Part shown: in pieces, positions 33,833 through 52,369 of the stretch | Layout: the number at the start of each line of letters is the position of its first letter | Position numbering within the stretch: position 1 is the first letter of the stretch | Assembly (NCBI GenBank): GCA_965223905.1 | Contig: CBDCXV010000011.1 | Coordinates: 320,001 to 384,000, forward strand | Direction of reading: 5' to 3' | Length of the DNA: 64,000 nucleotides | Source: Candidatus Latescibacterota bacterium | GTDB taxonomy: Bacteria; Latescibacterota; UBA2968; UBA8231 | Position numbers and translations under genes: made by a program | Notes under the pieces: model-generated | Told to the model about the DNA's origin: nothing | The model's database searches: none | Seen by the model: the letters and a program-made list of their open reading frames with translations, nothing else

Positions 33833-34893
33833 TGACGCACTCAATATAGTGAAAAAGGGAACCAAACTGAGCATTTTTCCTGTAATATCGCCATCAGACC
33901 GCAACGCCCCGCTCGCCCTCGATCAGGTCCTCGTAGCGTAACCGTTTTCCGATCATACCTCGGGCCAGCAGACACATCTGCTCGATGGTGTCCTTGTCGC
34001 GGATGCGGTGGCGGCCAGCAAACTCGTTCACGTACCGCTGCAGGTGCTTGAAGCTCATTCGGAAGTACGTCCCGTGATAAGCCCGTTTCAGCACTGCCCA
34101 GAAACTTTCGGCGCTGTTGGTATGGGCCATGCCCCTGACGTATTCACCGGCACCGTGGTTCACGGATTCGTGGTTTACCATCCCCTTGTAGGCGTAGTGC
34201 TCATCCGTGTATTTCTTGGCTGTCAGATTGACGTGGGCCAGCACCTGACCCTGTAGCGTATCGGTTTTCAGGTCAGGCACCAGTACGGCCTGAATCTCAT
34301 TCGTTTTTCGATCCACGAACGTGACGACCGCCTGCTTGCCGACGGTTCCGCGCCCGGCGTGCAGCTTCTTGTCCGCGTGTTTGTTCTTCTCTTTCCCGCC
34401 GAAAAACGCCTCATCAATCTCCACCGGGCCATCGAACTTCTCAGCGGTGTTCTTCACGAATGCTTCCCGGATGCGGTGCATCAGGTGCCACGCTGACTGA
34501 TGAGTGATCCCCAGATCACGATGGACGTGTATGGCGCTTGTGCCCCTCAGGTTCGTGGTAGTCAGATACAGGGCATATACCCACTTCTGGTACCCCAGAT
34601 TGCTGGACTGCATCACGGTGCCTTTCCGTACCGAGAAGAACTTCTGACAGTCTCGACACCGGTAGGGCATCCTCGGGTGCTTCGAGACCGACATGCTGCA
34701 CGAGCCGCAGTCAGGGCAATACCGCTCCCCATTCGGCCATCGCTGCTCCTCGAACCACTTTTCCGCCGCCTTGTCGTCGGGGAACATGCGAGCCAGTTCG
34801 GGGAGACTGATGCTCTTACGGTAAGCCCGTCCGGGGCCCTTTGTGCTGAAGTTTGTAGGAAATTTTGCCATATCACTATATGCTCGTTCGTCA
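33833..34893 (-). mobile_element. IS1595-family element (transposase 34871-33894)
   Basis: CPDC..CRDC, VEIDEAFFGG, YTDEHYAY, HTNSAESFW, HLQRYVNEF; imperfect IRs TGACG-N6/7-ATATAGTGA at 33833 and 34893. Confidence 0.9.
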
Positions 34894-35071
34894 CTGTAAT
34901 AAATATCGGGCATTTTGAGCTTTTTGTCAAGGTTTAAGTTGTTGTTTTTGAAGGGTTTAGGCTTCAAAAGGCGATGGGGAATCGCTCGTTTCGGTTCCTC
35001 CGGTACACCCGGTGGATTGCCCTTGACTTTCCGGCCATGAGAGTCGAAATTGTACATACTTAGCCCTCCTC

Positions 35072-35113
35072 TACTGAGGTTAGGTGAGGTCATACTGAGG
35101 TTAGGTGAGGTCA
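35072..35113. repeat. Perfect 21-bp tandem duplication TACTGAGGTTAGGTGAGGTCA
   Basis: Two exact adjacent copies. Confidence 0.9.
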
Positions 35114-35412
35114 GCAAAAAGCTCAGTCCCTCGTTGGGTGGCTTTTTGCTGACCGGTGAAGAGAGAATCAGCGGAGTCAGCCGATCATGTCGTCGTAAGC
35201 GACCTGATCGGCTTTTTTCGTGCTTCTCTCGGGATTCTTACAAATATAGGCATTGGACGGCATGCAGGATACAACACACGCATGAGAAAGTGCTGAATAT
35301 CAGGGTAGGGCGGGAAGGTACGCGTCCCCCCCCCCCCCCCCCCCCCCGCCCCGCCCCGCCGCCGCTGGTTGCTACGTGCTCAGGCGTTCAGTTCAACCCG
35401 CCAAATCTCGGC

Positions 35413-35441
35413 TTGACGGGCTGTTTCTCCGTCCGTAGAAT
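35413..35441 (+). promoter_or_regulatory. Sigma-70 promoter upstream of the TA pair
   Basis: TTGACG-N17-TAGAAT. Confidence 0.6.
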
Positions 35442-35607
35442 TATGATAATCACAATTACATAGCGTGGAACCCACGCCACTTCCCACGATGCTGTTCTGG
35501 TGGACTACTTTACGCTGGTTGCACCTCGAATCATTACGTCAGGTACCAGTGCGCCCCTTGCCGCCATGTATTAGCTATTTGCTACTCTTGAGATGGGAGT
35601 CCTACGG

Positions 35608-36057
35608 ATGGCAAACGTATTCGATGTAGCCGCCTGTATCCTTCAGAAACAGGGTCAGATGACCACATGGAAGCTCCAGAAACTGGTCTATTACTGCCAG
35701 TGCTGGTCGCTCGTGTGGGATGATGACGAGCTGTTCCCTGAAGAGATTGAGGCATGGGCCAATGGACCAGTCTGTCGCGATCTGTACCGTGCTCACGTCC
35801 GAAAATTCCGCCTGTCCCCTTCCGATTTAAGACAGGGAGATCCGGAAAAACTGACCGAAGACCAAAGCGAGACTGTGGGTACTGTACTGAATTATTATGG
35901 AAAAGAGTCTCCACAATACCTCAGCGATCTCACACACATGGAAGATCCATGGAAGAATGCCCGTAAGGGTGTTCCCGACAGTAAGCGTGGAAAGATCGTC
36001 ATCCCAAAGGCAGACATGGCCGAATACTACGGCAGCCTTTTGCCAGACCCTGATTAA
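35608..36057 (+). CDS. Panacea (DUF4065/SocA-like) antitoxin
   Basis: ANVFDVA, KLQKLVYYCQ, LFPEEIEAWANGPV, LSDLTHMEDPW. Confidence 0.9.
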   Translation: MANVFDVAACILQKQGQMTTWKLQKLVYYCQCWSLVWDDDELFPEEIEAWANGPVCRDLYRAHVRKFRLSPSDLRQGDPEKLTEDQSETVGTVLNYYGKESPQYLSDLTHMEDPWKNARKGVPDSKRGKIVIPKADMAEYYGSLLPDPD

Positions 36058-36564
36058 ATGGCCAAGGGAAAGCCAGCCAGTCGACAGCTAAACCGGGACA
36101 AGTCTAACAGAAGAGAAGTCGATCCCGAGAAAGCTAAACAGGGGCGCGGGAAAGACACCGAATCACCTGATCAAGAAAAAATCGCATGGGCGTTCGGTGC
36201 GATGGACAAAGATGGAGATTGGGGCTGGCGTACTCAGGCAAGTGCAGCATGGTGGAAGGAACTCCTACCCAAATTACAGAATTTTGAGACCATGACTTGG
36301 ATCCAGATCATGCAGGCAGCCGGTGGTAGGCGTAGAGGCAATAACCACCACCCTGTATCTGTTGAAGATCTGACTCCACAGGCGAGAAAGCGTCTTAGTC
36401 AAATCAAGCAGAATGATGTCGAGAAGTTATTTTCTCTGCGCTTAGATGGCACTAAGCGCATTTACGGAATACGTGATCGACGAGTCTTGAAGATGCTCTG
36501 GTATGATCCAAATCATGGAAATAACGCTATGGCTGTATGTCCAGCAAATAAGATTCGCACCTGA
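36058..36564 (+). CDS. Putative toxin partner of the Panacea antitoxin (RelE-like fold suspected)
   Basis: Abuts the antitoxin; LFSLRLDGTKRIYGIRDRRVLKMLWYDPNH. Confidence 0.65.
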   Translation: MAKGKPASRQLNRDKSNRREVDPEKAKQGRGKDTESPDQEKIAWAFGAMDKDGDWGWRTQASAAWWKELLPKLQNFETMTWIQIMQAAGGRRRGNNHHPVSVEDLTPQARKRLSQIKQNDVEKLFSLRLDGTKRIYGIRDRRVLKMLWYDPNHGNNAMAVCPANKIRT

Positions 36565-36654: not shown

Positions 36655-36997
36655 AGTTCCTTTTTTTGGATCTCGAGGATCGCCTGGGCCTGCTCCAGAC
36701 GCCCCCGCAGACGGGCGTTTTCTTTGCGCAAGCGCTCGTTGTCGCTGGCCACCGGGTCCCGACGACGGCCCTGGGGGCCCCGCGGCGTGGCCAACGCCTG
36801 CAACGAGCCTTCGCGGCGCGCCCGTCGCCAGGCGGCTAGCTGCGAGGAATACAGGCCTTCGCCGGCGCAGTAAGGCGCCTACCTCCCCCGGCGCCCGGCA
36901 GGCATCGGCTTCTTCCAGTACCCGCAGCTTATACTGCGCACTGAAGTGCCGGCGCTTGGCCCTCTCGGGCACTTCCGGGTCCGGACGAGAACCCTCA
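36655..36997 (-). mobile_element. IS3-family OrfA fragment (frameshifted)
   Basis: DPEVPERAKRRHFSAQYKLRVLEEADAC..GALLRR / GLYSSQL..LRKENARL..LEIQKK, ending at an A7 slippery run. Confidence 0.8.
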
Positions 36998-37014
36998 GGG
37001 GAGGAAACGAGATA

Positions 37015-39561
37015 ATGGTACATGGGGCTTGGGGAAAGACCGTCAAGAAGACAGCAAGCGTTCACCCCCTGGCGCATCACTGTATGGATGTGGCAGCGGT
37101 GTTTGAGCGTGTGGTGGAGTTGCCCGTCATCCGCGACCGGCTTGAGAGGGCTATGGATGCGCGGCTTACGGCTGCGGCATGCCAGCGGCTCTGCGCACTC
37201 GTCTTCCTGCATGACATCGGAAAGCTGCATCCGGGTTTTCAAGCGAAGGGATGGCAGCCCGGCATGTGGAGCTACCCGACCCGAGAACATCTGAAAGAAG
37301 GCTGGGCGTTCCTGGAGCTGGCGGCGAAATGGCCGCAGCACCCATTCCACGAAACGATGCAACGGATAATGGAATGGGGGGAGGCTGTCGTCCCTCTTTT
37401 TTCGGCGATTTTCGCGCACCACGGGCGCCCTGTAGAGCCACCGTCGGCTCCGATGCTTAAGGAGTGGCCGTGTCTTCCACATTACGACTGGCAGGCGGAG
37501 ACCGGTGTGATGTGCGCAGCCCTTCATGGCTGGTTCGCCGGCGCTTTCGAACCCGGGGGTGCACCTCTGGCTGGAAAGCCGCAATTCCACCATGCAATTG
37601 CCGGTCTGGTGTCGCTGGCCGACTGGATCGGTTCGGATACGAGGTTCTTCCCTTTCACCGATCCGTTCGACCTCTCCTACAACTCGGTGACGCGTGATGC
37701 CGCACGGGATGCGCTGAAGACGATCGGTCTGGACCCGGGTGCTGTCGTCACTCGTCCCGCACCGAATTTCCCCACACTGACCGGATTTCCCGAGGCCAAT
37801 CCGGCACAGGCCGTGGTGGGGGCTGTTGGGCCGGAAGCCCGGCTGCTGATCCTCGAAGCCGAAACCGGCTCGGGAAAGACCGAGGCTGCGCTGTGGCGCT
37901 TCACCCAACTTCTGGCGGCAGGAGCAGTGTCGGGACTCTACTTCGCTGTGCCGACCCGCGCCGCGGCCAGGCAGCTTCACGGCCGCGTGGACAAGGCAAT
38001 GCGCCGGGTATTCGGCGCGGCGGCACCCGAAGCCGTACTGGCCATCCCCGGGATGCTGAGGTCCGGCGAGTTCGAAGGCCAAGGCCTGCCCCATTGGGAG
38101 GTTAGATGGGACGACGATACGACATCGGCCCCGCAGCGATGGGCTGCCGAGCACGCAACGCGGTTCCTGGCGGCACCGGTCGCTGTAGGCACCGTTGACC
38201 AAGCGATGCTCGCCGGTCTTCAGGTAAAGCACGCGCACCTGCGCGGCAGCTCTCTCAACCGCAGCCTTCTGGTCATCGACGAGGTTCACGCTTCCGACGC
38301 CTACATGACCGAGGTGCAGGCGCAACTTCTGGAAGGGCACCTAGCCACCGGCGGATACGCGATGCTGATGTCCGCGACCCTGGGCGCCCGAGCGCGGGTG
38401 CGCTGGACAGGGGAACCGTTGCCGGAGTTTGGTACCGCAAGGACGACTCCCTATCCGGCGGTGTGGGTGAAAGGAGAAAACGGTCCGCGTCAGGCGCCGG
38501 ATGGAGGTCGACCCAAGACAGTACATCCGGAGGCCGTGCCGACGATGGACCCGGCGGAGACCGCACGCCGTGCCGTCTCCGCAGCGGAGCAGGGAGCGCG
38601 GGTCTTGGTGATCCGCAATACCGTTGACATGGCGGTCGACACTTGGCGCGGTGTTAGGGAATCCGGTTCCGAAACGCTGCTGATGCAGGCGGGGGCGGGG
38701 CCGGCGCTGCATCACGGACGTTTTGCCGTGGAAGATCGCGCGCTGCTCGACCAGACGGTGGAAGAAGCGCTCGCACCTCTTGGGACTCGGGAAACACAGG
38801 GCTGTATCGTGATTGGGACTCAGACGTTGGAGCAGTCGCTCGACATCGACGCCGATCTTCTGATTACCGACCTCTGCCCGATGGACGTGCTGCTGCAACG
38901 GATTGGACGGCTTCACCGACACGACCTACGCCGGCCCGAAGGCTTCGAGACGGCCCGCGCCCTGGTGCTGCTGCCGGAAGACGGGCTAGACCGCCTCACG
39001 TGCCCGGATTTCGTGAACGGGATTGGAGGGTGGGTAGCTGAGGATGGAGGGTTCAACGGTATCTATACCGATCTCGCGGGATTGGAGCTGACTCGACACC
39101 TGATCGAGCAACCCGTCTGGCGGATCCCGGAGATGAACCGCCGGCTCGTGGAGAGCGCAACCCACCCCGACCGCATCGGCGCCCTGATCGCTGAGAAGGG
39201 AGAGGACTGGGAACGGTACGACAGGCTCCACGGCGGCGCGAAGGCAGCGGAAAGAATGGTTGCCAAGCTTGTCGTTCTGGACCGCGAGGAACCGTTCGAT
39301 GATCACCTACGGTTTCCCAATTCGGACGAGAAGATCATGACCCGGCTGGGGGAGGAGGGTGCGATCCTGGAACTCGATCCGCCGCCGGATGGCCCCTTCG
39401 GCTGCCCGGTGACGCGGATCGCTGTGCCCGCACGATGGTCGCAAGGAATTACAAAAGATGACCGGGTAGAGATTACGCGGGATGAGGCCGGTTTGATCCT
39501 GTCGGTTGCAGAACGCCGATTTCGTTACTCGCGGGAGGGACTGTCAAAATTCATCGGTTGA
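37015..39561 (+). CDS. cas3: Cas3 HD nuclease-helicase
   Basis: HPLAHHCMDV, LHDIGK, SLADWIGS, AETGSGKT, GTVDQ, DEVH, SAT, QSLDID, QRIGRLHR; RBS GAGG. Confidence 0.96.
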   Translation: MVHGAWGKTVKKTASVHPLAHHCMDVAAVFERVVELPVIRDRLERAMDARLTAAACQRLCALVFLHDIGKLHPGFQAKGWQPGMWSYPTREHLKEGWAFLELAAKWPQHPFHETMQRIMEWGEAVVPLFSAIFAHHGRPVEPPSAPMLKEWPCLPHYDWQAETGVMCAALHGWFAGAFEPGGAPLAGKPQFHHAIAGLVSLADWIGSDTRFFPFTDPFDLSYNSVTRDAARDALKTIGLDPGAVVTRPAPNFPTLTGFPEANPAQAVVGAVGPEARLLILEAETGSGKTEAALWRFTQLLAAGAVSGLYFAVPTRAAARQLHGRVDKAMRRVFGAAAPEAVLAIPGMLRSGEFEGQGLPHWEVRWDDDTTSAPQRWAAEHATRFLAAPVAVGTVDQAMLAGLQVKHAHLRGSSLNRSLLVIDEVHASDAYMTEVQAQLLEGHLATGGYAMLMSATLGARARVRWTGEPLPEFGTARTTPYPAVWVKGENGPRQAPDGGRPKTVHPEAVPTMDPAETARRAVSAAEQGARVLVIRNTVDMAVDTWRGVRESGSETLLMQAGAGPALHHGRFAVEDRALLDQTVEEALAPLGTRETQGCIVIGTQTLEQSLDIDADLLITDLCPMDVLLQRIGRLHRHDLRRPEGFETARALVLLPEDGLDRLTCPDFVNGIGGWVAEDGGFNGIYTDLAGLELTRHLIEQPVWRIPEMNRRLVESATHPDRIGALIAEKGEDWERYDRLHGGAKAAERMVAKLVVLDREEPFDDHLRFPNSDEKIMTRLGEEGAILELDPPPDGPFGCPVTRIAVPARWSQGITKDDRVEITRDEAGLILSVAERRFRYSREGLSKFIG

Positions 39562-39586
39562 CACATCAACCCCTACATGGTATATT
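39558..39586 (+). promoter_or_regulatory. Near-consensus sigma-70 promoter for the cas8e operon/leader
   Basis: TTGACA-N17-TATATT, overlapping the cas3 stop codon. Confidence 0.75.
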
Positions 39587-39603
39587 GCTGTTCCAGTTAG
39601 AAT

Positions 39604-39627
39604 AACTATGTAATAGGTTCGACTCCC
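39604..39627 (+). promoter_or_regulatory. Predicted Cascade operator: AAC PAM plus partial protospacer for the mini-array spacer
   Basis: AAC-TATGTAATAGGTTCGACTCCC vs spacer GATGTCACAGGGTCGACCCCC; 16/21 identity, mismatches at 1, 6, 8, 12, 18. Confidence 0.75.
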
Positions 39628-39808
39628 AATTTTATATATATATTACTCATTTAGTGATGAGATTCAAAAACGGAGAATGCAAACGGAGAATGCAGGAGAA
39701 TGCAATGGTAGGCATACGTTTTGAATTCGAATTGGCAAGACGACTCAAAGGCTGGCTCACTTCCAGACGAGTGACTTTGGCGGTAATGCTCGATTCATGC
39801 ACTACGCG

Positions 39809-39901
39809 TTTTTCCCGAAACGGCCTTCGGGATAGTCCCGATGTCACAGGGTCGACCCCCCGCGATCGGGTGGATTCCCCATTGTTCATGGGGTCATCTA
39901 A
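39809..39901 (+). ncRNA. Degenerate mini-CRISPR (crRNA-like regulatory RNA, CreR/CreA-type)
   Basis: Pseudo-repeat 1 stem CCCGAA/TTCGGG with handle ATAGTCCC (array: ATAGACCC); 32-nt spacer 39840-39871; pseudo-repeat 2 GGATT-CCCCAT/ATGGGG. Confidence 0.78.
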
Positions 39902-39916
39902 GGCTCGGATCGACCG

Positions 39917-41455
39917 ATGAACCTCACCACCGATCCAGTTCTGACCCTCGCGGGCGGCGAGAAGGTTACCCTCCCGGCCCTGTTCGCGGCAATGGCGAGG
40001 GGTGAGGTGCGCGGGTTTCCAGCCTTGCGGCCTCATCAGCGCCCCGCGTGGCACATGTTTCTTGTGCAGCTGGGCGCTCTGTCGTTGTGGACTGCGGGTC
40101 GAGACCGCCTGCCAGATGATGCCGCGAGCTGGACGGCGGACCTGCGGAAGCTGACCCCAGACTACCCCGACGATGCGCCGTGGAGCCTATTCATAGAAGA
40201 ACGAAACAAGCCGGCCTTCCTTCAGCCTCCGGATCCGGGTGGCCTCAAGTGGAACACGGTGGAAACGCCCGACGCCCTGGATCTGCTAATAACCGCTCGC
40301 AATCACGACCTGAAGCAAACAGTCGCCAAGCAGGCGACGACGGAGGACTGGGTGTTCGCCCTGGTGTCCCTGCAAACATCTGCTGGCTACGACGGGCGGG
40401 GAAACTGTGGCATCGCGCGTATGAACGGGGGATCATCGAGCCGGCCTATGCTTGGCCTGACTCCCGCGCGAGACGGGGATCTATCTCTCGACCCTTCCGC
40501 ATGGTGGGCGCGTGACGTGGGGCGCCTGGTTACTGCTCGTAAATCGGGGAAACCAGGCCTAGTCGGCAGGGTGGGCGGGCCAGCACTCCTGTGGTGTTTC
40601 GACTGGCCGGAAGGCCACCAACTCGACTTTCGTGAACTGGATCCGTGGTTCGTCGAGGTCTGCCGCAGGGTCCGGCTGATGAACACCAAGGGAGCGGTTT
40701 CTGCTCAGCGCAGTACGTCGAAAACCGCGCGAATCGACGCTAAGGCATTCAAGGGCAACGTGGGCGATCCGTGGGCTCCGGTCCATAAAACTGAAGAAAA
40801 GAGCCTTACGCTTGGCGGGGGTGATTTCGATTACAAACGGCTCTGCGAGCTGATGTTTTCCGGGGATTGGGCAGTACCCCTTCTCGCCCAGCACGGAGGC
40901 GATGAGACCGGAGACATGCTCCTGGTGGCAGAGGCTCTTTCACGCGGGAACAGCAAGACCGAGGGTTTCAAATCCCGCGTCGTACAAGTACCGGGAAAAG
41001 TCGTGCGATTTTTTTCGACGGAGACCGCCGCAAGTCTCTCGAAGGCGCAGCTGGTCGAGATCACCGGATTCGACGCAGCATTGCGGTACGCGATCGCGCT
41101 CGCGGCAGCAGGGGGGGATAGGGACGGCGTAAAGAGGGACCATTTCAAAAGGGCGGCCCCTGCGAGTAAACGATTCGATCGTACAGCTGACCGCCTGTTT
41201 TTTCCGAGCCTTTGGAGACGAGTTGAGGCGAGGGCTTTGACCGACCCGGATGCGGAGGAGACAGCAAAGATCCAGTTCCTGAAAGATCTGTTTGAAGCAG
41301 CAACCGCCGAGCTTGAATCCGCGCTGCCGGCCATCCCTTGCCCGACGATCCAGCGTCCGAGAGCGGAGGCACGGGCTTGGCGGGCCTTCGGGTCCAGGGT
41401 AGGAAAAGAGTATCCTGTGCTTTTTGAGAAGAAGGAGACCCATGGCGCTGCATGA
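39917..41455 (+). CDS. cas8e: Type I-E large subunit Cas8e (Cse1/CasA)
   Basis: MNLTTDP start, HMFLVQL, PAFLQP, LVSLQT, DPW; size and position in the operon. Confidence 0.88.
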   Translation: MNLTTDPVLTLAGGEKVTLPALFAAMARGEVRGFPALRPHQRPAWHMFLVQLGALSLWTAGRDRLPDDAASWTADLRKLTPDYPDDAPWSLFIEERNKPAFLQPPDPGGLKWNTVETPDALDLLITARNHDLKQTVAKQATTEDWVFALVSLQTSAGYDGRGNCGIARMNGGSSSRPMLGLTPARDGDLSLDPSAWWARDVGRLVTARKSGKPGLVGRVGGPALLWCFDWPEGHQLDFRELDPWFVEVCRRVRLMNTKGAVSAQRSTSKTARIDAKAFKGNVGDPWAPVHKTEEKSLTLGGGDFDYKRLCELMFSGDWAVPLLAQHGGDETGDMLLVAEALSRGNSKTEGFKSRVVQVPGKVVRFFSTETAASLSKAQLVEITGFDAALRYAIALAAAGGDRDGVKRDHFKRAAPASKRFDRTADRLFFPSLWRRVEARALTDPDAEETAKIQFLKDLFEAATAELESALPAIPCPTIQRPRAEARAWRAFGSRVGKEYPVLFEKKETHGAA

Positions 41456-43183: not shown

Positions 43184-43902
43184 ACTTTCGCTGGCTGGTC
43201 CTGCGGCTTGAAGCGCCGCTGATGGCCTTCGGAGGCGTGGCAATCGACCAGTTCGGCCCGGTGCGGGATTTTCCAGCGGCCTCCATGCTGGCCGGGCTGA
43301 TTGCCAACGCCTTGGGCTGGCACTGGTCGGACCGAGCCGAGAATCAGGCGATCCAGGATCGTCTGATCTTCGCGGCCCGGCGCGAACGGGAAGGGGACGT
43401 GCTGACCGACACGCAGAACGCACAGCTTGCCAAGACCGACAAGGGCTGGACGACAGGCGGGGAGCCGGAGGGAAGGGCAGGAGCCACCTACGATGCTCCC
43501 CATCGAAAAACCCGCGACTACCACGCCGATTTGTCCGTGCGGGTCGTGCTGCGTCTCGACCCGGAGGAGGAGACGCCAACCCTCGACGCCTTGGCCGAAG
43601 CCTTCGACAGGCCCGCACGGCCCCTGTTTCTCGGTCGCAAGCCCTGCCTACCCTCGGCGTTGTTGCTGGCGAATGGGCCGGACCGCTGGGTGATGGGGGA
43701 TACCGCATTTGAAGCGCTTCGCAGGGTGCCAGGTGAAGGGGAAGGGCTCCGCGCACAGTGGCCGATGGGGCAGGGCCCGGAAGCAGGCGAAAGCGTGGGC
43801 CCTATCGTAGATCTGGCTGACATGAGGAACTGGCGCACTGGTCTGCATGGCGGATCGCGCCAAGTGGTAGAAGGACGGATTTCTCCGGAGAGGAACGAGT
43901 GA
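43180..43902 (+). CDS. cas5: Cas5e (CasD)
   Basis: LRLEAPLMAFG, GLIANALG, RDYHAD, PLFLGRKPCLP. Confidence 0.95.
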   Translation: MNFRWLVLRLEAPLMAFGGVAIDQFGPVRDFPAASMLAGLIANALGWHWSDRAENQAIQDRLIFAARREREGDVLTDTQNAQLAKTDKGWTTGGEPEGRAGATYDAPHRKTRDYHADLSVRVVLRLDPEEETPTLDALAEAFDRPARPLFLGRKPCLPSALLLANGPDRWVMGDTAFEALRRVPGEGEGLRAQWPMGQGPEAGESVGPIVDLADMRNWRTGLHGGSRQVVEGRISPERNE

Positions 43903-44684
43903 TGGAACTCAATCTGGTTCGTGTACCGATCGCTACGCCTTCCCTCGCTCGCTGGGCGGGCGAGCGCGGCTGGGTCCGGCGGCGAGGCAACTTTACGGAC
44001 TTCGACGAAGGCCGCGCCCTCCATCACCTCTTGAATGAAGTATTCGGACCGGGCTCGGTTCGGCCCTTTCGTCTACTTGTGCCGCCCCGGTGCACTTCGG
44101 GAAACCTGTATGCGTACTCCTCCATGGACGCGGATTCCCTGTGCGCAGCCGCTCGCGTTCATGCCCTGCCGGACCATCTTGGCGTGCTGTCGCCCGACCG
44201 GCTGGAGACCAAGTCCATGCCTCAAGACTGGCGACCCGGGCAACAGGTGGGCTTTGACGCTCGCGTGCGGCCCGTCAGGCGATTGGGTAGCGATCTGGAG
44301 AGCCCAGACGGGGTGATCGGCAAAGGCTCGGAAATCGATGCCTTCCTGGTGGAAGCCCTTCGGCGACACCCTGCAGAATCTGGTGGGATGGCCCAGCAGA
44401 ACCGGACCCGCGAGACTGTCTATCTCGACTGGCTGACCGAGCAACTCGCCCCCGCCGCAGAGCTTGAGCGCTCAGCAAGCCGCCTTGCCCGGTTCCGCCG
44501 CGTCCGCGTATCGCGTGGAAACAGCGGACCCGAAGGCCCGGATGCCACGATCCACGGAACATTGACGGTGGGCGATCCAGACGCTTTTGCCTCGTTATTG
44601 GGGCGCGGAATCGGCCGCCATCGGGCCTATGGGTACGGCATGCTGCTGCTGCGTCCGCCCAACCGCCCGATCCCGGAGCGCTGA
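43899..44684 (+). CDS. cas6e: Cas6e (CasE/Cse3)
   Basis: LHHLL; C-terminal Gly loop GIGRHRAYGYGML. Confidence 0.93.
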   Translation: MMELNLVRVPIATPSLARWAGERGWVRRRGNFTDFDEGRALHHLLNEVFGPGSVRPFRLLVPPRCTSGNLYAYSSMDADSLCAAARVHALPDHLGVLSPDRLETKSMPQDWRPGQQVGFDARVRPVRRLGSDLESPDGVIGKGSEIDAFLVEALRRHPAESGGMAQQNRTRETVYLDWLTEQLAPAAELERSASRLARFRRVRVSRGNSGPEGPDATIHGTLTVGDPDAFASLLGRGIGRHRAYGYGMLLLRPPNRPIPER

Positions 44685-45576: not shown

Positions 45577-45870
45577 ATGCCGACTACTATGGTCGTCACT
45601 CGAAGCGTCGAGGACCGTTACCGCGGCTTCCTTACTTCGATCATGCTGGAAATCGCACCCGGCGTATATGTGGCGTCGGATCTGTCGGCAGCTGTCCGAA
45701 CACGATTGTGGTATGTGCTCTCATCCTGGTGGGATACGTTCGGGACAGGGTCGATCACCATGGTGTGGCGCGATACGCAAGCCGTCGGAAACCTGTGTTT
45801 CGAGAATCTCGGAGAACCCCCGAAAGAGATTGTGGACGCCGACGGCATCCTACTCGTAAAACGCAATTAG
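45577..45870 (+). CDS. cas2: Type I-E Cas2
   Basis: RGFLTSIMLEIAPGVYV, VDADGILL. Confidence 0.95.
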   Translation: MPTTMVVTRSVEDRYRGFLTSIMLEIAPGVYVASDLSAAVRTRLWYVLSSWWDTFGTGSITMVWRDTQAVGNLCFENLGEPPKEIVDADGILLVKRN

Positions 45871-45923
45871 GCCCCCCTCAGCTCTACGTCCCGCCCCTAA
45901 TTGGTACAGTGAACACTTGAACA

Positions 45924-48900
45924 GCTTCCCCCGCATGCGCGGGGATAGACCCTCAGGACCCCCAGGCAAAGCACCCTGAAACACGCTTCCCCCGCATGCG
46001 CGGGGATAGACCCGCTCCAGGTATTGTCGAAAATGTAACCGGGAAGCTTCCCCCGCATGCGCGGGGATAGACCCCTTACCAGCCGCTCGGAGCAGGAATG
46101 GTCGCAGCTTCCCCCGCATGCGCGGGGATAGACCCCCAACCCCTAGGCAGGGAGAACCACAAAGAATGCTTCCCCCGCATGCGCGGGGATAGACCCACGT
46201 ATGGCACTGGCAGGGATAGGGTTTACGTGCTTCCCCCGCATGCGCGGGGATAGACCCTTGATACTTGTCGCAGACCAATTCAGGTCGAAGCTTCCCCCGC
46301 ATGCGCGGGGATAGACCTGTGTTGGTTTCCTTGTCTCTGATCCAAAATTTGCTTCCCCCGCATGCGCGGGGATAGACCTCATTCAAGCGAGAGGGGAAAC
46401 CGTGCCGATTCGCTTCCCCCGCATGCGCGGGGATAGACCCAAGACGAACAAGGCTTAATCGGACAGCTCGAAGCTTCCCCCGCATGCGCGGGGATAGACC
46501 CGAAGAGAAAGCCTGGCTGGTGCGGTGCTGGCAGCTTCCCCCGCATGCGCGGGGATAGACCCCCGTTCCCCACCGATGCAAGTTCTCCGACCCAGCTTCC
46601 CCCGCATGCGCGGGGATAGACCCATCGCCCAGCTGGTGCAGTCCGGCGCTGTGTTGCTTCCCCCGCATGCGCGGGGATAGACCCTGGCCCGGCTCCAGGC
46701 CGGGGGCGCAGTTGCCGGTTCCCCCGCATGCGCGGGGATAGACCCCCGCCGGGCAGAACTACGAAATCTTCGGCCGTGGTTCCCCCGCATGCGCGGGGAT
46801 AGACCCTCACCGTCCTGCGGCTGATTAGACCGCCACCAGGTTCCCCCGCATGCGCGGGGATAGACCCCAATGAAGGTGACGACGCGCCGAAATTCTCGTG
46901 GTTCCCCCGCATGCGCGGGGATAGACCCCCGTCATCAGCAACAAGGACTGGAACGCTTTGGGTTCCCCCGCATGCGCGGGGATAGACCCTGGAAATCTTC
47001 GTTGGCACCGGATCCGGAACTGGTTCCCCCGCATGCGCGGGGATAGACCTTCGCTTCATCCCTTCGCGGCCGAAGATCCAGGGGTTCCCCCGCATGCGCG
47101 GGGATAGACCCAGGGAGAGATCGAACATGAAATATTGGATCAAGGTTCCCCCGCATGCGCGGGGATAGACCCCTGGGAAGACAAGCCTTCCTCACTTGGG
47201 GAATGGTTCCCCCGCATGCGCGGGGATAGACCCCTCTCGGGGAAGGCGGTCTTCAGAAAGTAAGTGGTTCCCCCGCATGCGCGGGGATAGACCCCCGCAT
47301 GCGCGGGGATAGACCCTGCGTTTTCTCTTGTTCTTTCTCGATTACAATGGTTCCCCCGCATGCGCGGGGATAGACCCGTCAGAGATAAGGGAAAAAACCA
47401 GAAAATGACGGTTCCCCCGCATGCGCGGGGATAGACCCCCATTCAGGAGGGACAAGGCTATGAAGGAGATGGTTCCCCCGCATGCGCGGGGATAGACCCG
47501 TGGCACATCGTTTGCTATGGAAACAGGGTATGGTTCCCCCGCATGCGCGGGGATAGACCCCTGTGGGAGGACGACAAGATCGAGACCAAGGTGGTTCCCC
47601 CGCATGCGCGGGGATAGACCCGCTGCAACGTAGGTCGCGCAGGTTGCCGGAGAGGTTCCCCCGCATGCGCGGGGATAGACCCAAGGCGGCCCATATCTGA
47701 CTTGCGGCGGTCTTGGTTCCCCCGCATGCGCGGGGATAGACCCCAGATGGGTGGAGGGGCCAACAACCTCACCATGGTTCCCCCGCATGCGCGGGGATAG
47801 ACCCTCTCCAGATACATCTATCATTCGTACGAGATAGGTTCCCCCGCATGCGCGGGGATAGACCCCCACAAGCAAGGGAGACAATCCAAGAATGGGCGGT
47901 TCCCCCGCATGCGCGGGGATAGACCCTCGATACCACCTAAAGTAAGACAGGTACCGAAGGTTCCCCCGCATGCGCGGGGATAGACCGATGGGCAATGCGG
48001 TTGCCGATGACGTGGCGGCGGTTCCCCCGCATGCGCGGGGATAGACCCAGGACGAGAGCCTCCTCGTCAAAGGTGTCTACGGTTCCCCCGCATGCGCGGG
48101 GATAGACCCGAGATATTCGGCAGGGCGCGGGCCGCGGCCTTGGTTCCCCCGCATGCGCGGGGATAGACCCACGCCGGAGGACCATGACCAAGAGGTATCG
48201 CCGGTTCCTCCGCATGCGCGGGGATAGACCCCGGTCACGACCCCTTTCTTACGCGGTGCTTGGGGTTCCCCCGCATGCGCGGGGATAGACCCGCTCCGGA
48301 CTACGCTCGCTCGGTCGCTGAATTGGTTCCCCCGCATGCGCGGGGATAGACCCGAAGAAGGACTAAAGGACGAAGACCCCATAATGGTTCCCCCGCATGC
48401 GCGGGGATAGACCCTCGTACATCAATTTCCAAGGCTTGATCCAGATGGTTCCCCCGCATGCGCGGGGATAGACCCTTTTCGACCTGTTCCACTATTCTTC
48501 CCAGGGCGGTTCCCCCGCATGCGCGGGGATAGACCCGTGGGGAACATCCGCCTTGCGGCAAAGGTCAAGGTTCCCCCGCATGCGCGGGGATAGACCCTTG
48601 TCGAGGCGCACGAGTTCGATCTGCTGGCCGGTTCCCCCGCATGCGCGGGGATAGACCCCTGACCGCGCCGACGATGACTCAGGCGGGGATGGTTCCCCCG
48701 CATGCGCGGGGATAGACCCGCGGCGCGTGTGATCGCCAGGAGTCGGAGTGCGGTTCCCCCGCATGCGCGGGGATAGACCCAAAGGGGTCTCCGACACCGT
48801 GGAAACCCAGATGGTTCCCCCGCATGCGCGGGGATAGACCCTCGGCATCAGCATTGCCGTATACGCCTACGTTGGTTCCCCCGCATGCGCGGGGATAGAC

Positions 48901-50428
48901 CCGGGAGCAGAATTGCAATGGCGTTTCTTGGGCAGGTTCCCCCGCATGCGCGGGGATAGACCCGCGGCGTCGGCCAGCACCACTTGAACGGCTTTGGTTC
49001 CCCCGCATGCGCGGGGATAGACCCGGCGCCGACGGGAGCAACGAGCCCATCGGAATGGTTCCCCCGCATGCGCGGGGATAGACCCCTGCCATCCGAGTTT
49101 CTGGGCCTCCATGTACTGGTTCCCCCGCATGCGCGGGGATAGACCCGTGCCATTCCCCGGTGCGCCACCGATCCTTATGGTTCCCCCGCATGCGCGGGGA
49201 TAGACCCCACATGACTCTCTTGCGCGACGCCATGGAACCGGTTCCCCCGCATGCGCGGGGATAGACCCTCAAAGCCGGCACTCCGGTCAAGGCGCGAGAA
49301 GGTTCCCCCGCATGCGCGGGGATAGACCCCATTTCCACCTCGGTATCGACGAGCACCCACAGGTTCCCCCGCATGCGCGGGGATAGACCCATTGATGTAG
49401 GAGCGGATCAAGCCCAAGTCGTGGTTCCCCCGCATGCGCGGGGATAGACCCCTACAAAATTATACACAGGGCGACAATTGGAAGGTTCCCCCGCATGCGC
49501 GGGGATAGACCCAACGCGCTGGTCGACTGGGGCATGTATCAGGTGGTTCCCCCGCATGCGCGGGGATAGACCCGTGGCCGACGATTGACCCGGCCGTAGA
49601 AGATTGGTTCCCCCGCATGCGCGGGGATAGACCGTAGGGCCGGAAGCGTTCCCAGCGGGCTTCCAAGGTTCCCCCGCATGCGCGGGGATAGACCCCTTGC
49701 CCTGGGTTCGGCAGCCCTCCAGGACACGGTTCCCCCGCATGCGCGGGGATAGACCCGATATGCACGTTGTCAGCGGGCTGAACGCCTTGGTTCCCCCGCA
49801 TGCGCGGGGATAGACCCGAGGAAGGGCTACTAAAAGACACCCTTTCCGCGGTTCCCCCGCATGCGCGGGGATAGACCTTGGGAATACCGTCTGGCTTGCC
49901 CCGAAGAAATGGTTCCCCCGCATGCGCGGGGATAGACCCTGGCCGGCGGTGCGCCGGGCCATGGCCCTCGTGGTTCCCCCGCATGCGCGGGGATAGACCG
50001 GCCGCCCCTCTCGAACATGCCAGGCCGGTCTGGGTTCCCCCGCATGCGCGGGGATAGACCCGTGAGCTATCGCACAGTGACCAGAGTCTTCCAGGTTCCC
50101 CCGCATGCGCGGGGATAGACCCCTCCTAGACACTGACGAGGCGGATGGCACCAAGGTTCCCCCGCATGCGCGGGGATAGACCCGCCCTCTACTTCGTCGC
50201 CGGCCGCGGCCACGAGGTTCCCCCGCATGCGCGGGGATAGACCCCTGAAGATCCTCCTGAAGATCCGGCTGATCCGCGGTTCCCCCTCATGCGCGGGGAT
50301 AGACCCGAGGCCGGCAACGGCTTGGACGTGGGGCAGCAGGTTCCCCCGCATGCGCGGGGATAGACCCCCCTGTGGTAGGGTTGAATGCCCGGATCTTATG
50401 GTTCCCCCGCATGCGCGGGGATAGACCC
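45924..50428 (+). CRISPR. Type I-E array: 74 full 29-bp repeats G(G/C)TTCCCCCGCATGCGCGGGGATAGACCC, 73 spacers of 32 bp (one of 33), plus one 22-bp partial repeat
   Basis: 61-bp period; 73x61+22+1 equals the distance between first and last repeat starts; 53-bp leader after cas2. Confidence 0.98.
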
Positions 50429-50453: not shown

Positions 50454-51724
50454 GGTACGGTCCAGGTACATGGTTTACAGATCAGTCCAGGTACATGGTT
50501 TACAGTTTCGCCCACCTTTGGGCACCTCAAGGAGGTGCTCACATGCCCTGGAACGAAACCTCAGCCATGGACCAACGAATGCATTTCATCGCCGATTACC
50601 TCGAGGACTTCTTCCCCTTTTCCGAGCTGTGCCGTCGCTACGGCATCAGCCGTCCCACCGGCTACAAGTGGGTGCAGCGGTATGTCGACGCAGGCGCTGC
50701 CGGCTTGATGGCGCAGTCGCGTAGACCGGTCCGTTGCCCGCACGCTACGTCTTCCGACCTCGTAGAGGCGATTCTCGGGCGCGCCGCACACACCCGACGT
50801 GGGGGGCCAAGAAGCTGCTGGCGCTCCTCTGGCGATCGCAGCCGCATCGCCCCTGGCCGGCACGCACACCGTCTGCGACATCCTCAAACGCCATGGCCTG
50901 GTGCCGACGCCGCGGACGCGGCGCCGGCCGGGCTCTGCGGGCAAACCCCAGGCGGCCCTGAGCGCGCCCAATCACGTCTGGACCGCCGACTTCAAGGGGC
51001 AGTTCAAGACCCTGGATGGCCGCTACTGCTACCCGCTGACCGTCGTCGACGGCTACAGCCGCTTCCTGCTGGGGTGCCAAGCCCTCGACGCGCCCCAGGG
51101 GCAACTGAGCCGGCCGGTCTTCCACCGGCTCTTCCGCACCTACGGCCTGCCCCGCATCCTCCGCACCGACAACGGCGCCCCCTTCGCCTCCTCCCAGGCG
51201 CTGGGACGGCTCTCCCAACTGTCGGTCTGGTGGATCCGGCTCGGCATCTTGCCCGAGCGCATCCAGCCCGGCTGCCCGCAGCAGAATGGGCGCCACGAAC
51301 GCCTGCATGGCACGCTCAAGCGGGAGGCGACGATTCCCCCCGCCGCGTCCCGCTTCGGACAGCAATACCGCTTTACCCGCTTCCGTCACGAATACAACCA
51401 GGAACGACCCCACGAGGCCTTGGGACAAAAACCTCCGGTCGAGTTCTACCAGCCTTCGCCACGTCCTTTTCCCGGAAAGCTGCCGCCCCTACACTACCCT
51501 GCGCACTGGGAAGTTCGCCTGGTCAGTACTAACGGAGGCATCCGATGGAAGACCCATCGAGTAGCCGTCAGTAACGCCTTGCGTCAACAACCCATCGGCT
51601 TGGAACCCATTGACGACGGAGTCTGGGAGGTGTGGTTCGGTCCCCTTAGACTGGGTCGCATGGACGAACGACAGCTCACCATCACCGACGCTTTGGCTAA
51701 AGCCGCTCGCCGGAAACTGTACAC
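50454..51724 (+). mobile_element. IS481-family element (transposase from 50543, frameshift ~50780, right end truncated)
   Basis: Doubled GTCCAGGTACATGGTTTACA end motif; MPWNETSAMDQR, WTADFKG, PLTVVDGYSR, RTDNGAPF, QQNGRHER, RPHEAL. Confidence 0.9.
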
Positions 51725-51822
51725 CACAGACCCAACGGTCGCCGTCCCCGTCACGCATGTCGATGTACGCCGGATGATCTTGGGGCACCGGGGCGATCCC
51801 GTGCCTTCTGACCTCAGCCTAC
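51722..51822 (-). pseudogene. Excalibur-like calcium-binding domain fragment
   Basis: T*AEVRRHGIAPVPQDHPAYIDMRDGDGDRWVC (DxDxD..C). Confidence 0.55.
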
Positions 51823-51877
51823 GTGAAAGCCACGACGATGTTGTGCCGGACACAAGGCGCCTTGTCAGACGTTGGCG

Positions 51878-52369
51878 TCAAGTACCAAGAAACTCATCGA
51901 ATTCCCGTTTTGCCTCTGTAACCGCCCAATCTTCGCAGGCATGGGCAGCCTGGGCGGTCGGCTCATTTCGATCTGTGGGAACCGATAGACCGAGCTGACG
52001 AAGTGAAAATTCAACCGCCTTTCGAAGCCGTGATGCCTCCCACATCCATTCCTCGGAGTTTAGATACAATATAGGCATCGAAGTTACTTCTCCCCGGCCG
52101 GCAAGCACCTTCAACAACAGGTCTCGTGATGCGTTGCGCCGGTGGCACTCAAGTCCGATCTCGTAGCGGAGCATCTCGTCACGGTAACGTTCCACCCGCT
52201 CTTGGACCAACAACCGTTGATCCGTTGTCAGTCCCACAGTTTCCCTGGGGCAGAGGATCCCCCGCTTTCCTTTGCTTCGCCGAGTCCACTGCACTACTCC
52301 AAAAAAGACAGCTATTCCAACGGAAAGAACACCCGCTATACCAACGAATACAGTGGTTGCATCAGGCAT
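51878..52369 (-). CDS. Hypothetical protein with an N-terminal TM helix, coupled to the dynamin gene
   Basis: Overlaps the dynamin stop codon; RBS GGAGGA. Confidence 0.65.
   Translation of the reverse strand: MPDATTVFVGIAGVLSVGIAVFFGVVQWTRRSKGKRGILCPRETVGLTTDQRLLVQERVERYRDEMLRYEIGLECHRRNASRDLLLKVLAGRGEVTSMPILYLNSEEWMWEASRLRKAVEFSLRQLGLSVPTDRNEPTAQAAHACEDWAVTEAKREFDEFLGT

What the first reader, a model, noticed from the sequence alone, without database searches (positions are those of the whole stretch)
39558..39920. Hidden mini-CRISPR targeting its own cas promoter region: RNA-guided autoregulation (CreR/CreTA-like) in a type I-E locus
Seen: (1) promoter TTGACA-N17-TATATT at 39558; (2) two pseudo-repeats with different stem sequences but the array's geometry (6-bp stem; the first ends ATAGTCCC vs ATAGACCC), enclosing exactly 32 nt; (3) spacer GATGTCACAGGGTCGACCCCC matches TATGTAATAGGTTCGACTCCC at 39607 in 16/21 nt; (4) three of the five mismatches fall at 6, 12 and 18; (5) the target is preceded by AAC, fitting the C-ending PAM implied by the array; (6) pairing stops after nt 21. 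Known: I-E Cascade flips out every sixth crRNA base, partial R-loops bind without licensing Cas3, and CreA/CreR RNAs repress promoters this way. Inference: Cas6e matures a crRNA-like guide that parks Cascade about 15 bp after the predicted start site, giving negative feedback relieved by crRNA competition or anti-CRISPRs. The class is known; this instance looks unannotated. Seed mismatches at 1 and 8 may weaken binding.
Basis: partly seen in the sequence, partly recalled or inferred. Interest (0 to 1): 0.92.

Follow-up and report, generated by a model that had tools for sequence, protein, structure and literature searches.

The report
Mini-CRISPR that represses its cas operon
A two-repeat mini-CRISPR just upstream of the Cascade genes encodes a guide RNA that partly matches the operon's own promoter region; this is a known kind of CRISPR self-regulation, here conserved in many uncultured bacteria and lying inside a small conserved reading frame.

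Summary
The 355-nt cas3-cas8e spacer of this type I-E locus holds a strong sigma70-like promoter (39558-39586). It also holds an AAC-flanked site (39607-39627) and, 233 nt downstream of that site, a mini-array. The mini-array is psiR1 hairpin + handle ATAGTCCC, a 32-nt psiS, and a psiR2 hairpin (39814-39893).

The same module sits at the same distance from cas8e in at least 30 of 161 related loci from several phyla. Both hairpins covary. In 25 of 26 distinct systems psiS has its own PAM-flanked partial match in the same spacer, usually just after a TTGAC -35 box. Guide and target change together between lineages. Positions 6, 12 and 18 are almost never matched (10 of 69), against 284 of 345 at the other positions, which is the fingerprint of I-E Cascade binding.

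This is a CreR-type cas autorepressor, a known class, so a new family member. No RNA data exist, so processing and repression remain inferred.

New here: the mini-array lies inside a conserved ~70-codon reading frame with a strong ribosome-binding site. That frame ends at the cas8e start codon, which suggests an added translational layer.

The parts
36946..39561 (+). cas3 (helicase-nuclease); its stop codon lies inside the -35 box of the next promoter
   Evidence: NCBIfam Cas3 core and HD domains; sequence
39558..39586 (+). sigma70-like promoter TTGACA-17-TATATT with TG extension; predicted start near 39593
   Evidence: 11 of 12; only hit in 39300-40100. A TTGAC box lies 17-58 nt upstream of the target in 17 of 23 related loci
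39604..39606 (+). AAC, the PAM-like trinucleotide 5' of the target
   Evidence: in related loci the PAM is AAC in 16, AAT in 4, TAC in 2 and TCT in 1 of 23
39607..39627 (+). target (protospacer-like) site: 16 of 21 identical to psiS nt 1-21; 16 of 18 when positions 6, 12 and 18 are set aside
39668..39705 (+). three tandem copies of a 13-nt unit (AAACGGAGAATGC), each carrying a GGAG; the last one supplies the Shine-Dalgarno of the small reading frame
   Evidence: sequence
39705..39920 (+). 71-codon reading frame (SD GGAG at 39695-39698, ATG at 39705) that runs through the whole mini-array; its stop TGA overlaps the cas8e ATG (ATGA)
39814..39831 (+). psiR1 hairpin, CCCGAA / TTCGGG with a 6-nt loop
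39832..39839 (+). 5'-handle-like ATAGTCCC (array handle: ATAGACCC)
   Evidence: A25, T26, C30 and C31 invariant in 27 sequences
39840..39871 (+). psiS, the 32-nt spacer-like guide
39872..39893 (+). psiR2: GGATT + hairpin CCCCAT / ATGGGG with a 5-nt loop (3'-handle-like); the predicted mature RNA is 39832-39893, 62 nt
39917..41455 (+). [quoted passage not shown]
43899..44684 (+). cas6e, the presumed processing enzyme
   Evidence: TIGR01907, E 1.4e-9, below the curated cut-off
45924..50428 (+). canonical array: 74 repeats of GGTTCCCCCGCATGCGCGGGGATAGACCC with mostly 32-nt spacers

Best explanation
This is a CreR-type cas-regulating mini-CRISPR of a type I-E system. The promoter at 39558-39586 starts a transcript that carries the mini-array in the cas8e leader. 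Cas6e is inferred to cut after the psiR1 and psiR2 hairpins. That would release a 62-nt crRNA-like RNA (39832-39893) made of the 8-nt handle AUAGUCCC, the 32-nt psiS, and a 3' hairpin. Loaded into Cascade, this RNA would recognise AAC plus 39607-39627 through about 21 nt of PAM-proximal pairing, about +14 to +34 from the predicted start. The pairing is too short to license Cas3, so Cascade would sit there as a roadblock and repress its own operon. The loop would loosen when canonical crRNAs or anti-CRISPRs take Cascade away.

Shown here: the sequence anatomy, its conservation, hairpin covariation, guide-target co-variation, and the every-sixth-base signature.

Inferred: processing, binding, repression and relief.
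For: Locus: a complete I-E locus with a 74-repeat array.

Anatomy and chance levels.

Family:
- A geometry scan finds the same module in 30 of 161 loci (the window plus 160 fetched loci). The handle starts at -85 from cas8e in most of them.
- L012 is also a member.
- Model hits add L071, L032, L089 and L083.
- The hosts are labelled Latescibacterota, Bryobacterales, Trueperaceae, Spirochaetia, Pseudomonadales and others.
- All detected psiS are 32 nt.

Hairpins:
- 87.3% of cells are paired, against 79.0% in shuffles.
- The covariation score is 0.234 against 0.123 in shuffles; 0 of 500 shuffles reach it.
- Slid controls give at most 60% paired.
- RNAalifold on its own recovers psiR2.

Targets:
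- 22 of 26 distinct psiS score 8 or more on a + strand site in their own spacer.
- L018 scores 7.
- L076 and L160 have AAC-flanked sites on the other strand, scoring 11 and 12.
- The locus's own psiS ranks first among the 26 in 21 of 26 regions.
- Shuffled psiS reach 8 or more in 1.5% and 10 or more in 0.1% of 5200 trials.

Per-position matches in 23 pairs:
- positions 1-5: 20-23 matched; position 6: 1
- positions 7-11: 18-23 matched; position 12: 5
- positions 13-15: 15-19 matched; position 18: 4

The sixth positions were not scored when sites were chosen, so their 10 of 69 matches is an unbiased figure.

Relatives' canonical repeats keep CCCCGC-4-GCGGGG + ATAGACC or ATGGACC, so the psiR are a separate conserved lineage.

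Model R1 scores the window element at 83 bits, against at most 40 bits for array units.

The class is experimentally established for I-E in S. enterica (passages read).
Against: - No RNA run holds the locus, so there is no evidence of transcription or processing.
- The window's pair has two non-sixth mismatches in the seed, at positions 1 and 8. Position 8 is mismatched in only 1 of 23 family pairs, and that one is the window itself. This copy may therefore bind weakly.
- Its target starts 20 nt after the -10 rather than over it.
- AAC as an interference PAM could not be confirmed from real protospacers.
- The psiR upper stems and loops differ from the canonical repeat, and Cas6e tolerance of this is untested.
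- The closest relative (Cas8e 92% identical) has no such spacer at all, so the module is dispensable.
- L012 has the mini-array but no detectable target.
- The loci are related, so counts across them overstate independence.
Confidence: 0.85

Rival explanations
1. CreTA-like addiction module. The 71-codon frame under the Cascade-repressed promoter encodes a toxin, and the mini-array is its antitoxin guide. Loss or inhibition of Cascade would then unleash the toxin.
For: A conserved open frame with a strong SD lies between the repressed promoter and the mini-array. Toxin genes controlled by crRNA-like RNAs are known (passages).
Against: - The peptide is poorly conserved outside the part dictated by the RNA elements; nonsynonymous codon changes outnumber synonymous ones in 11 of 12 pairs.
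- It has no family hit, and the atlas gives nothing above 0.79.
- It has no tandem rare codons after the start, unlike the tRNA-sequestering CreT as I recall it.
- It is not hydrophobic in the window.
Confidence: 0.06
2. The element acts mainly in cis on the mRNA. Cas6e binding or cleavage at the two hairpins in the cas8e leader, in competition with ribosomes translating the overlapping frame, sets Cas8e translation. Under this view the DNA match is secondary.
For: - The distance of the mini-array to the cas8e start is fixed.
- The frame ends within -11 to +5 of the start in 25 of 26 systems.
- The cas8e SD is weak (mean -4.6 kcal/mol) and the frame's SD is strong (mean -7.7).
- Loci without the module have cas8e abutting cas3.
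Against: It does not explain guide-target co-variation, the PAM, or the sixth-position pattern. It may well be an added layer rather than a rival.
Confidence: 0.05
3. A small protein gene only; the RNA-like features are by-products of its coding sequence.
For: The frame is open in nearly all loci. Motifs such as RDSP..VTG and DSPSLMG recur.
Against: - Those motifs coincide exactly with the handle and the psiR2 hairpin.
- The stems show two-sided compensatory changes.
- The N-terminal half evolves with no third-position bias.
- A coding constraint cannot produce a matching PAM-flanked site 150-390 nt upstream that co-varies with psiS.
Confidence: 0.02
4. A decayed remnant of an old array, or a chance resemblance, with no function.
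For: Model R1 also hits canonical repeat-spacer-repeat units, which shows common descent from a CRISPR unit.
Against: The chance expectations are 1.6e-4 and 4.5e-5. The module is conserved in position, length and structure across phyla and has co-varying targets.
Confidence: 0.02

Closest known systems
CreR of the Salmonella enterica type I-E system (Liu et al., bioRxiv 10.1101/2023.03.10.532045; abstract and passages read)
   Same: - A degenerate two-repeat mini-CRISPR in a type I-E cas locus.
- psiR1 keeps the 8-nt 5' handle and psiR2 keeps the 3' handle.
- psiS has limited PAM-proximal identity to a PAM-flanked site in the casA (cas8e) promoter region.
- It is proposed, and there shown, to make Cascade repress its own operon.
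   Different: - There the PAM is AAG, with 15 consecutive matches about 140 bp upstream of casA. Here it is AAC, with a 21-nt interrupted match 310 nt upstream.
- Different repeat family and hosts (uncultured Latescibacterota and others).
- Here the mini-array abuts cas8e at a fixed distance and lies inside a conserved reading frame. I could not tell from the passages whether the Salmonella element shares these two points.
- Nothing is tested experimentally here.
Regulatory mini-arrays of class 1 systems (Shmakov et al., PMC10120712; passages read)
   Same: - Mini-arrays in long cas3-cas8 spacers of I-E loci (19% of 3741 loci).
- Partial spacer matches to the cas8 promoter with a PAM.
- Mismatches at every sixth position noted (there for I-F1).
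   Different: - In their E. coli example the target lies downstream of the mini-array. Here it lies upstream, so the guide is probably made from the promoter it represses.
- Their pipeline needed at least 16 matching nt to the repeat, discarded hits overlapping ORFs, and used complete genomes. This family may therefore have been missed.
- Their supplementary lists could not be seen.
CreTA of Haloarcula hispanica type I-B (recalled; mentioned in passages)
   Same: A crRNA-like RNA with a degenerate repeat pair guides Cascade to a promoter by partial complementarity.
   Different: There the repressed gene is an RNA toxin. No toxin hallmark was found here.
tracr-L autorepression of Cas9 in Streptococcus pyogenes (cited in a passage; otherwise recalled)
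   Same: A natural non-canonical guide makes the effector repress its own promoter through a partial match.
   Different: Class 2, a single protein, and a tracrRNA isoform rather than a mini-array.

Membership tests
CreR / regulatory mini-array of type I-E | Lies in an intergenic region of a type I-E cas locus (cas3-cas8e) | tested here: met
CreR / regulatory mini-array of type I-E | Two repeat-like sequences enclosing one spacer-length segment | tested here: met
   32 nt between psiR1 and psiR2, as in the array; model R1 links it to repeat-spacer-repeat units
CreR / regulatory mini-array of type I-E | psiR1 keeps the 5' handle; psiR2 keeps the 3' hairpin | tested here: met
   The handle matches 7 of 8. 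The lower stems CCC/GGG and CCCC/GGGG are kept. Handle columns are invariant or nearly so, and both hairpins covary
CreR / regulatory mini-array of type I-E | Partial, PAM-proximal match of psiS to a PAM-flanked site at the effector-gene promoter | tested here: met
   the same holds in 25 of 26 related systems
CreR / regulatory mini-array of type I-E | Cas6e-dependent maturation to a crRNA-like RNA | not testable with these tools
   no RNA run holds the locus
CreR / regulatory mini-array of type I-E | Cascade-dependent repression of the cas promoter, relieved by crRNA excess or anti-CRISPRs | not testable with these tools
   needs reporter assays
CreTA toxin-antitoxin RNA pair | A toxin gene under the promoter repressed by the crRNA-like RNA | tested here: inconclusive
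   A conserved frame is there, but it has no family hit, no conserved peptide and no tandem rare codons after the start
Adaptive CRISPR array | Identical repeats, with variable spacers acquired from invaders | tested here: not met
   The two psiR differ from each other and from the repeat. psiS is inherited and matches the host's own promoter region
Any Rfam family | Match to a curated covariance model | tested here: not met
   0 matches at E up to 10 in 39400-40100

The most novel reading that the evidence does not exclude
The guide RNA gene is embedded in a translated leader frame. That frame has a strong ribosome-binding site, is about 70 codons long, and stops on the cas8e start codon, so it hands ribosomes to the weakly initiating cas8e.

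On each transcript, ribosome passage (which melts the two hairpins) and Cas6e cleavage (which cuts the frame away from cas8e and releases the guide) would exclude each other. The module would then sense Cas6e post-transcriptionally as well as sensing free Cascade transcriptionally. It would replace the cas3-cas8e translational coupling seen in loci that lack it.
Probability: 0.3. Interest if true: 0.75.

Novelty: new member of a known kind. Interest (0 to 1): 0.5.

Why it matters
It extends RNA-guided cas autorepression, tested so far in a few model systems, to a conserved family carried by type I-E loci of uncultured bacteria from several phyla.

It also supplies 23 natural guide-target pairs. 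Their pattern shows directly which positions Cascade needs: positions 1-5 and 7-11 are kept, and every sixth position is free.

The overlap with a conserved reading frame that ends at the cas8e start codon, if functional, would link crRNA-type processing to translation of the effector. I did not find that arrangement described in the passages I read or in my paper search.

Tried and rejected
- Rfam scan of 39400-40100: no match.
- ARAGORN on 39000-40200: no tRNA. I ran it because the target contains GGTTCGACTCC, which resembles a tRNA T-arm, and a genome-wide near-hit of psiS looked like a T-arm too.
- No RNA holder listed for the locus, so expression and processing could not be examined.
- PAM confirmation from real protospacers failed. 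Array spacers against the organism's own genome gave only one partial hit, with a CGC flank and seed mismatches, plus low-complexity hits. The whole array against the phage collection gave no match.
- Internal promoter for the mini-array: a promoter-like site between target and psiR1 in only 2 of 23 loci and none in the window.
- A helix inside psiS: I saw complementary stretches in several psiS by eye, but RNAalifold finds no shared helix there. Dropped.
- A weaker cas8e Shine-Dalgarno in loci with the module than in those without: no difference (mean -4.64, n=22, against -4.21, n=23; p=0.51).
- The small frame as a known protein: Pfam gave 0 families for 4 of 5 members and one sub-threshold hit. 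The atlas best score was 0.79.
- The whole-construct fold of 39800-39916 is no more stable than shuffles (z -0.51). Only the two local hairpins are supported.
- Paper search was swamped by 'Cretaceous' papers and gave nothing new.
- One search (Cas-regulating / crRNA-like with uORF, leader peptide, translational coupling or small ORF) listed no paper that joins the two topics among the 12 shown of 622.
- Supplementary files of the two key preprints are closed. Their lists of I-E mini-arrays and creR candidates may include relatives of this family.

Rows dropped before counts:
- The per-position profile uses 23 of the 26 distinct systems. It leaves out L012 (no target) and L076 and L160 (targets on the other strand).
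- For L030 the top-scoring site (TCT flank) was used, although an AAC-flanked site 8 nt away scores the same.
- Identical psiS from duplicate records were counted once.

Full report
**Locus.** The window carries a complete type I-E system on the + strand. It comprises cas3 (36946-39561), cas8e (39917-41455), cse2, cas7, cas5, cas6e (43899-44684), cas1, cas2 (45577-45870) and an array of 74 repeats (45924-50428). The repeat is GGTTCCCCCGCATGCGCGGGGATAGACCC and spacers are mostly 32 nt. The repeat's last base is C in most copies. Between cas3 and cas8e lie 355 nt whose G+C drops to about 40% in a 64% genome. The closest named relative of the locus is a Latescibacterota MAG.

**Checking the observation.**
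- Promoter: TTGACA-17-TATATT at 39558-39586, 11 of 12 matches plus TG.
- psiR1: hairpin CCCGAA/TTCGGG followed by ATAGTCCC.
- Guide: a 32-nt segment.
- psiR2: GGATT + hairpin CCCCAT/ATGGGG.
- Target: a 16 of 21 match between the first 21 nt of that segment and 39607-39627. The mismatches are at 1, 6, 8, 12 and 18, the site is preceded by AAC, and only 1 of 11 positions matches beyond nt 21.
- The only correction is that the loops are 6 and 5 nt rather than 4.

Chance is an unlikely explanation even for this one locus.
- The hairpin-plus-handle pattern occurs 6 other times outside arrays in 15.85 Mb of both strands.
- One other genomic site equals the target's score.
- That gives expectations of about 1.6e-4 and 4.5e-5 for the spacer.
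- The chance that all three sixth positions are among five mismatches is 0.0075.

**Related loci.** A Cas8e alignment brought in 80 loci from genomes and 80 from metagenomes.
- A geometry scan looked for a hairpin, a handle within 3 mismatches beginning AT, 31-33 nt, 5 nt, then a hairpin. It found the module in 30 of 161 loci, the window included. In most, the handle starts exactly 85 nt before cas8e and psiS is 32 nt.
- L012 has it with an imperfect stem. A covariance model adds L071, L032, L089 and L083.
- The hosts are labelled Latescibacterota, Bryobacterales, Trueperaceae, Spirochaetia, Pseudomonadales and others.
- The closest relative (Cas8e 92% identical) has cas3 and cas8e almost touching and no module.
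- In the sample that holds the window's sequence, one contig reproduces 39484-40375 without a difference. Other contigs join cas3 to cas8e without the spacer. The module is therefore gained or lost as a unit.

**Structure.** Twenty-seven distinct sequences align without gaps when anchored on the handle.
- For the two hairpins, 87.3% of cells pair (79.0% in shuffles).
- Twenty-two cells show two-sided changes (7.7 in shuffles).
- The covariation score of 0.234 is reached by 0 of 500 shuffles, and sliding the partner drops pairing to 60% or less.
- psiR2 varies as CAT/ATG, CAC/GTG, CAA/TTG and CGT/GCG above an invariant CCCC/GGGG base.
- RNAalifold finds psiR2 unaided but not psiR1, whose loop geometry differs in the more distant members.
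- The handle columns are invariant or nearly so.
- The canonical repeats in four relatives keep CCCCGC-4-GCGGGG + ATAGACC or ATGGACC. The pseudo-repeats are therefore an inherited, separately conserved lineage, not fresh decay of each array.

**Guide and target.** I scored sites by PAM-proximal matches and ignored every sixth position.
- Of 26 distinct psiS, 22 have a + strand site scoring 8 or more in their own spacer. L018 scores 7. L076 and L160 have AAC-flanked sites on the other strand, scoring 11 and 12. L012 has none.
- Shuffled guides reach 8 in 1.5% and 10 in 0.1% of 5200 trials.
- The locus's own guide ranks first of 26 in 21 regions. High cross scores are almost all between obvious relatives.
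- Guides as different as GGGAACGCTGAAATAGT, GTGGTTTCCGAGAC and the window's GATGTCACAGGGTCGAC each have their own matching site, so guide and target co-vary.
- The flank is AAC in 16, AAT in 4, TAC in 2 and TCT in 1 of 23.
- A TTGAC box lies 17-58 nt upstream of the site in 17 of 23, so the site overlaps or closely follows the promoter core.
- In the per-position profile of 23 pairs, positions 1-5 and 7-11 match in 18-23 pairs. Position 6 matches in 1, position 12 in 5 and position 18 in 4.
- The high values are partly built in by how sites were picked. The sixth positions were not scored, so their 10 of 69 matches, at or below the 25% expected for free drift, is an unbiased sign that they are unconstrained.
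- From recalled structural and biochemical work on E. coli Cascade, this is the behaviour expected of I-E Cascade, which flips out every sixth base.

**The window's own pair.** It has the longest pairing in the family (21 nt) but also two non-sixth seed mismatches. The G-to-T mismatch at position 1 recurs in L018 and L090. The mismatch at position 8 is unique to the window. Its target starts 20 nt after the -10, as in L013, L017 and L035.

**Mechanism.** The evidence fits a CreR-type autorepressor.
- No promoter-like site lies between target and psiR1 in the window, and only 2 of 23 relatives have one. The guide is therefore probably cut out of the leader of the very transcript it represses.
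- No promoter-like or terminator-like site lies between cas2 and the array either, so crRNA supply may hang on the same promoter. That is a conjecture.
- Processing by Cas6e, binding, repression and relief by crRNA or anti-CRISPR competition are inferred by analogy with the tested Salmonella I-E CreR (passages).

**An unexpected feature.** In the frame that reads the handle as GAT AGN CCC, an open reading frame runs from about -212 to the cas8e start.
- In the window it has SD GGAG at 39695-39698 and ATG at 39705. It is 71 codons long, and its TGA overlaps the cas8e ATG.
- An in-frame ATG lies between -191 and -216 in 21 of 26 distinct systems. The frame ends within -11 to +5 of the cas8e start in 25 of 26.
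- In the 40 codons upstream of psiR1, outside the conserved RNA elements, the frame has 5 stops in all, against 44 and 36 in the other two frames. It has no stop in 22 of 26 loci, against 4 and 6.
- The peptide is barely conserved there. Differences are spread evenly over codon positions, and nonsynonymous codon changes outnumber synonymous ones in 11 of 12 pairs.
- It matches no family.
- Its SD is strong (mean -7.7 kcal/mol, n=20), while that of cas8e is weak with or without the module (-4.6 and -4.2). Loci without the module have cas8e abutting cas3.
- The simplest reading is that what matters is translation of the frame rather than its product. It may carry ribosomes to cas8e. If so, ribosomes and Cas6e would compete for the same RNA.
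- A toxin role (CreTA-like) is not excluded, but no hallmark was found.

**Comparison and novelty.** Regulatory mini-arrays in cas3-cas8 spacers are reported for 19% of 3741 I-E loci, with predicted cas8-promoter targets (passages). CreR-guided autorepression was shown for a Salmonella I-E system. All sequence-level defining features are met here, so this is a new member, indeed a new conserved family, of a known kind. The published pipeline required at least 16 nt of repeat identity, dropped hits overlapping ORFs and used complete genomes, so it may have missed this family. I could not see the supplementary lists. The position of the target upstream of the guide, the fixed distance to cas8e and the overlapping frame are the points of difference. 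I found no paper linking crRNA-like regulators to leader frames (12 of 622 listed).

**Verdict.** Interest is moderate because the class is known. It is raised somewhat by the clean natural guide-target data set and by the embedded reading frame.

Noticed in passing
window 39705-39920: A 71-codon reading frame with a strong SD overlaps the whole mini-array and stops on the cas8e ATG. It is open in 22 of 26 related systems, but its peptide is poorly conserved.
   Followed up: yes
window 39668-39705: Three tandem copies of AAACGGAGAATGC, each with a GGAG and an ATG, just before the small frame's start. I did not look for this triplication in the related loci.
   Followed up: no
L010 / L002 (G020), and window 39513-39917: The closest relative (Cas8e 92% identical) lacks the whole 355-nt module. 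Contigs of the same sample join cas3 to cas8e without it, so the module is an insertion/deletion polymorphism.
   Followed up: partly
window 39559-39563: The cas3 stop codon TGA lies inside the -35 hexamer TTGACA. A TTGAC box right after the cas3 end recurs in relatives.
   Followed up: partly
window 45871-45923: Only 53 nt separate cas2 from the first repeat, with no promoter-like or terminator-like site. The array may be read through from the cas operon and so fall under the same autorepression.
   Followed up: partly
window 45924-46600 and 47265-47290: The first 11 repeats start GCTT instead of GGTT, a leader-side variant. One unit has 83-nt spacing with a partial extra repeat.
   Followed up: no
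G000 C10:57442-57593 and C9:2942-3151: A small orphan array of 3-4 repeats with a variant repeat (…CACGCGCGGGGATAGCCCC), and two further model hits on C9. Only one cas8e was found in the genome with the window's Cas8e as query.
   Followed up: no
window 33894-36564 and 50495-51998: The locus is flanked by an IS1595-family transposase gene, a SocA/Panacea-domain antitoxin-like gene with a neighbour of no known family, and an IS481-like transposase/integrase downstream of the array.
   Followed up: no
L076 and L160/L162: In these two systems the AAC-flanked target lies on the opposite strand of the same spacer (scores 11 and 12), a different geometry of repression.
   Followed up: partly
window 39607; L018, L090/L091: A G (guide) to T (target) mismatch at position 1 recurs in three of the 23 pairs counted; an equally scoring AAC-flanked site in L030 shows it too. 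This suggests position 1 is not needed, or is selected to be unpaired.
   Followed up: no
window 39615-39627: The target contains GGTTCGACTCC, which resembles a tRNA T-arm. ARAGORN finds no tRNA there.
   Followed up: yes
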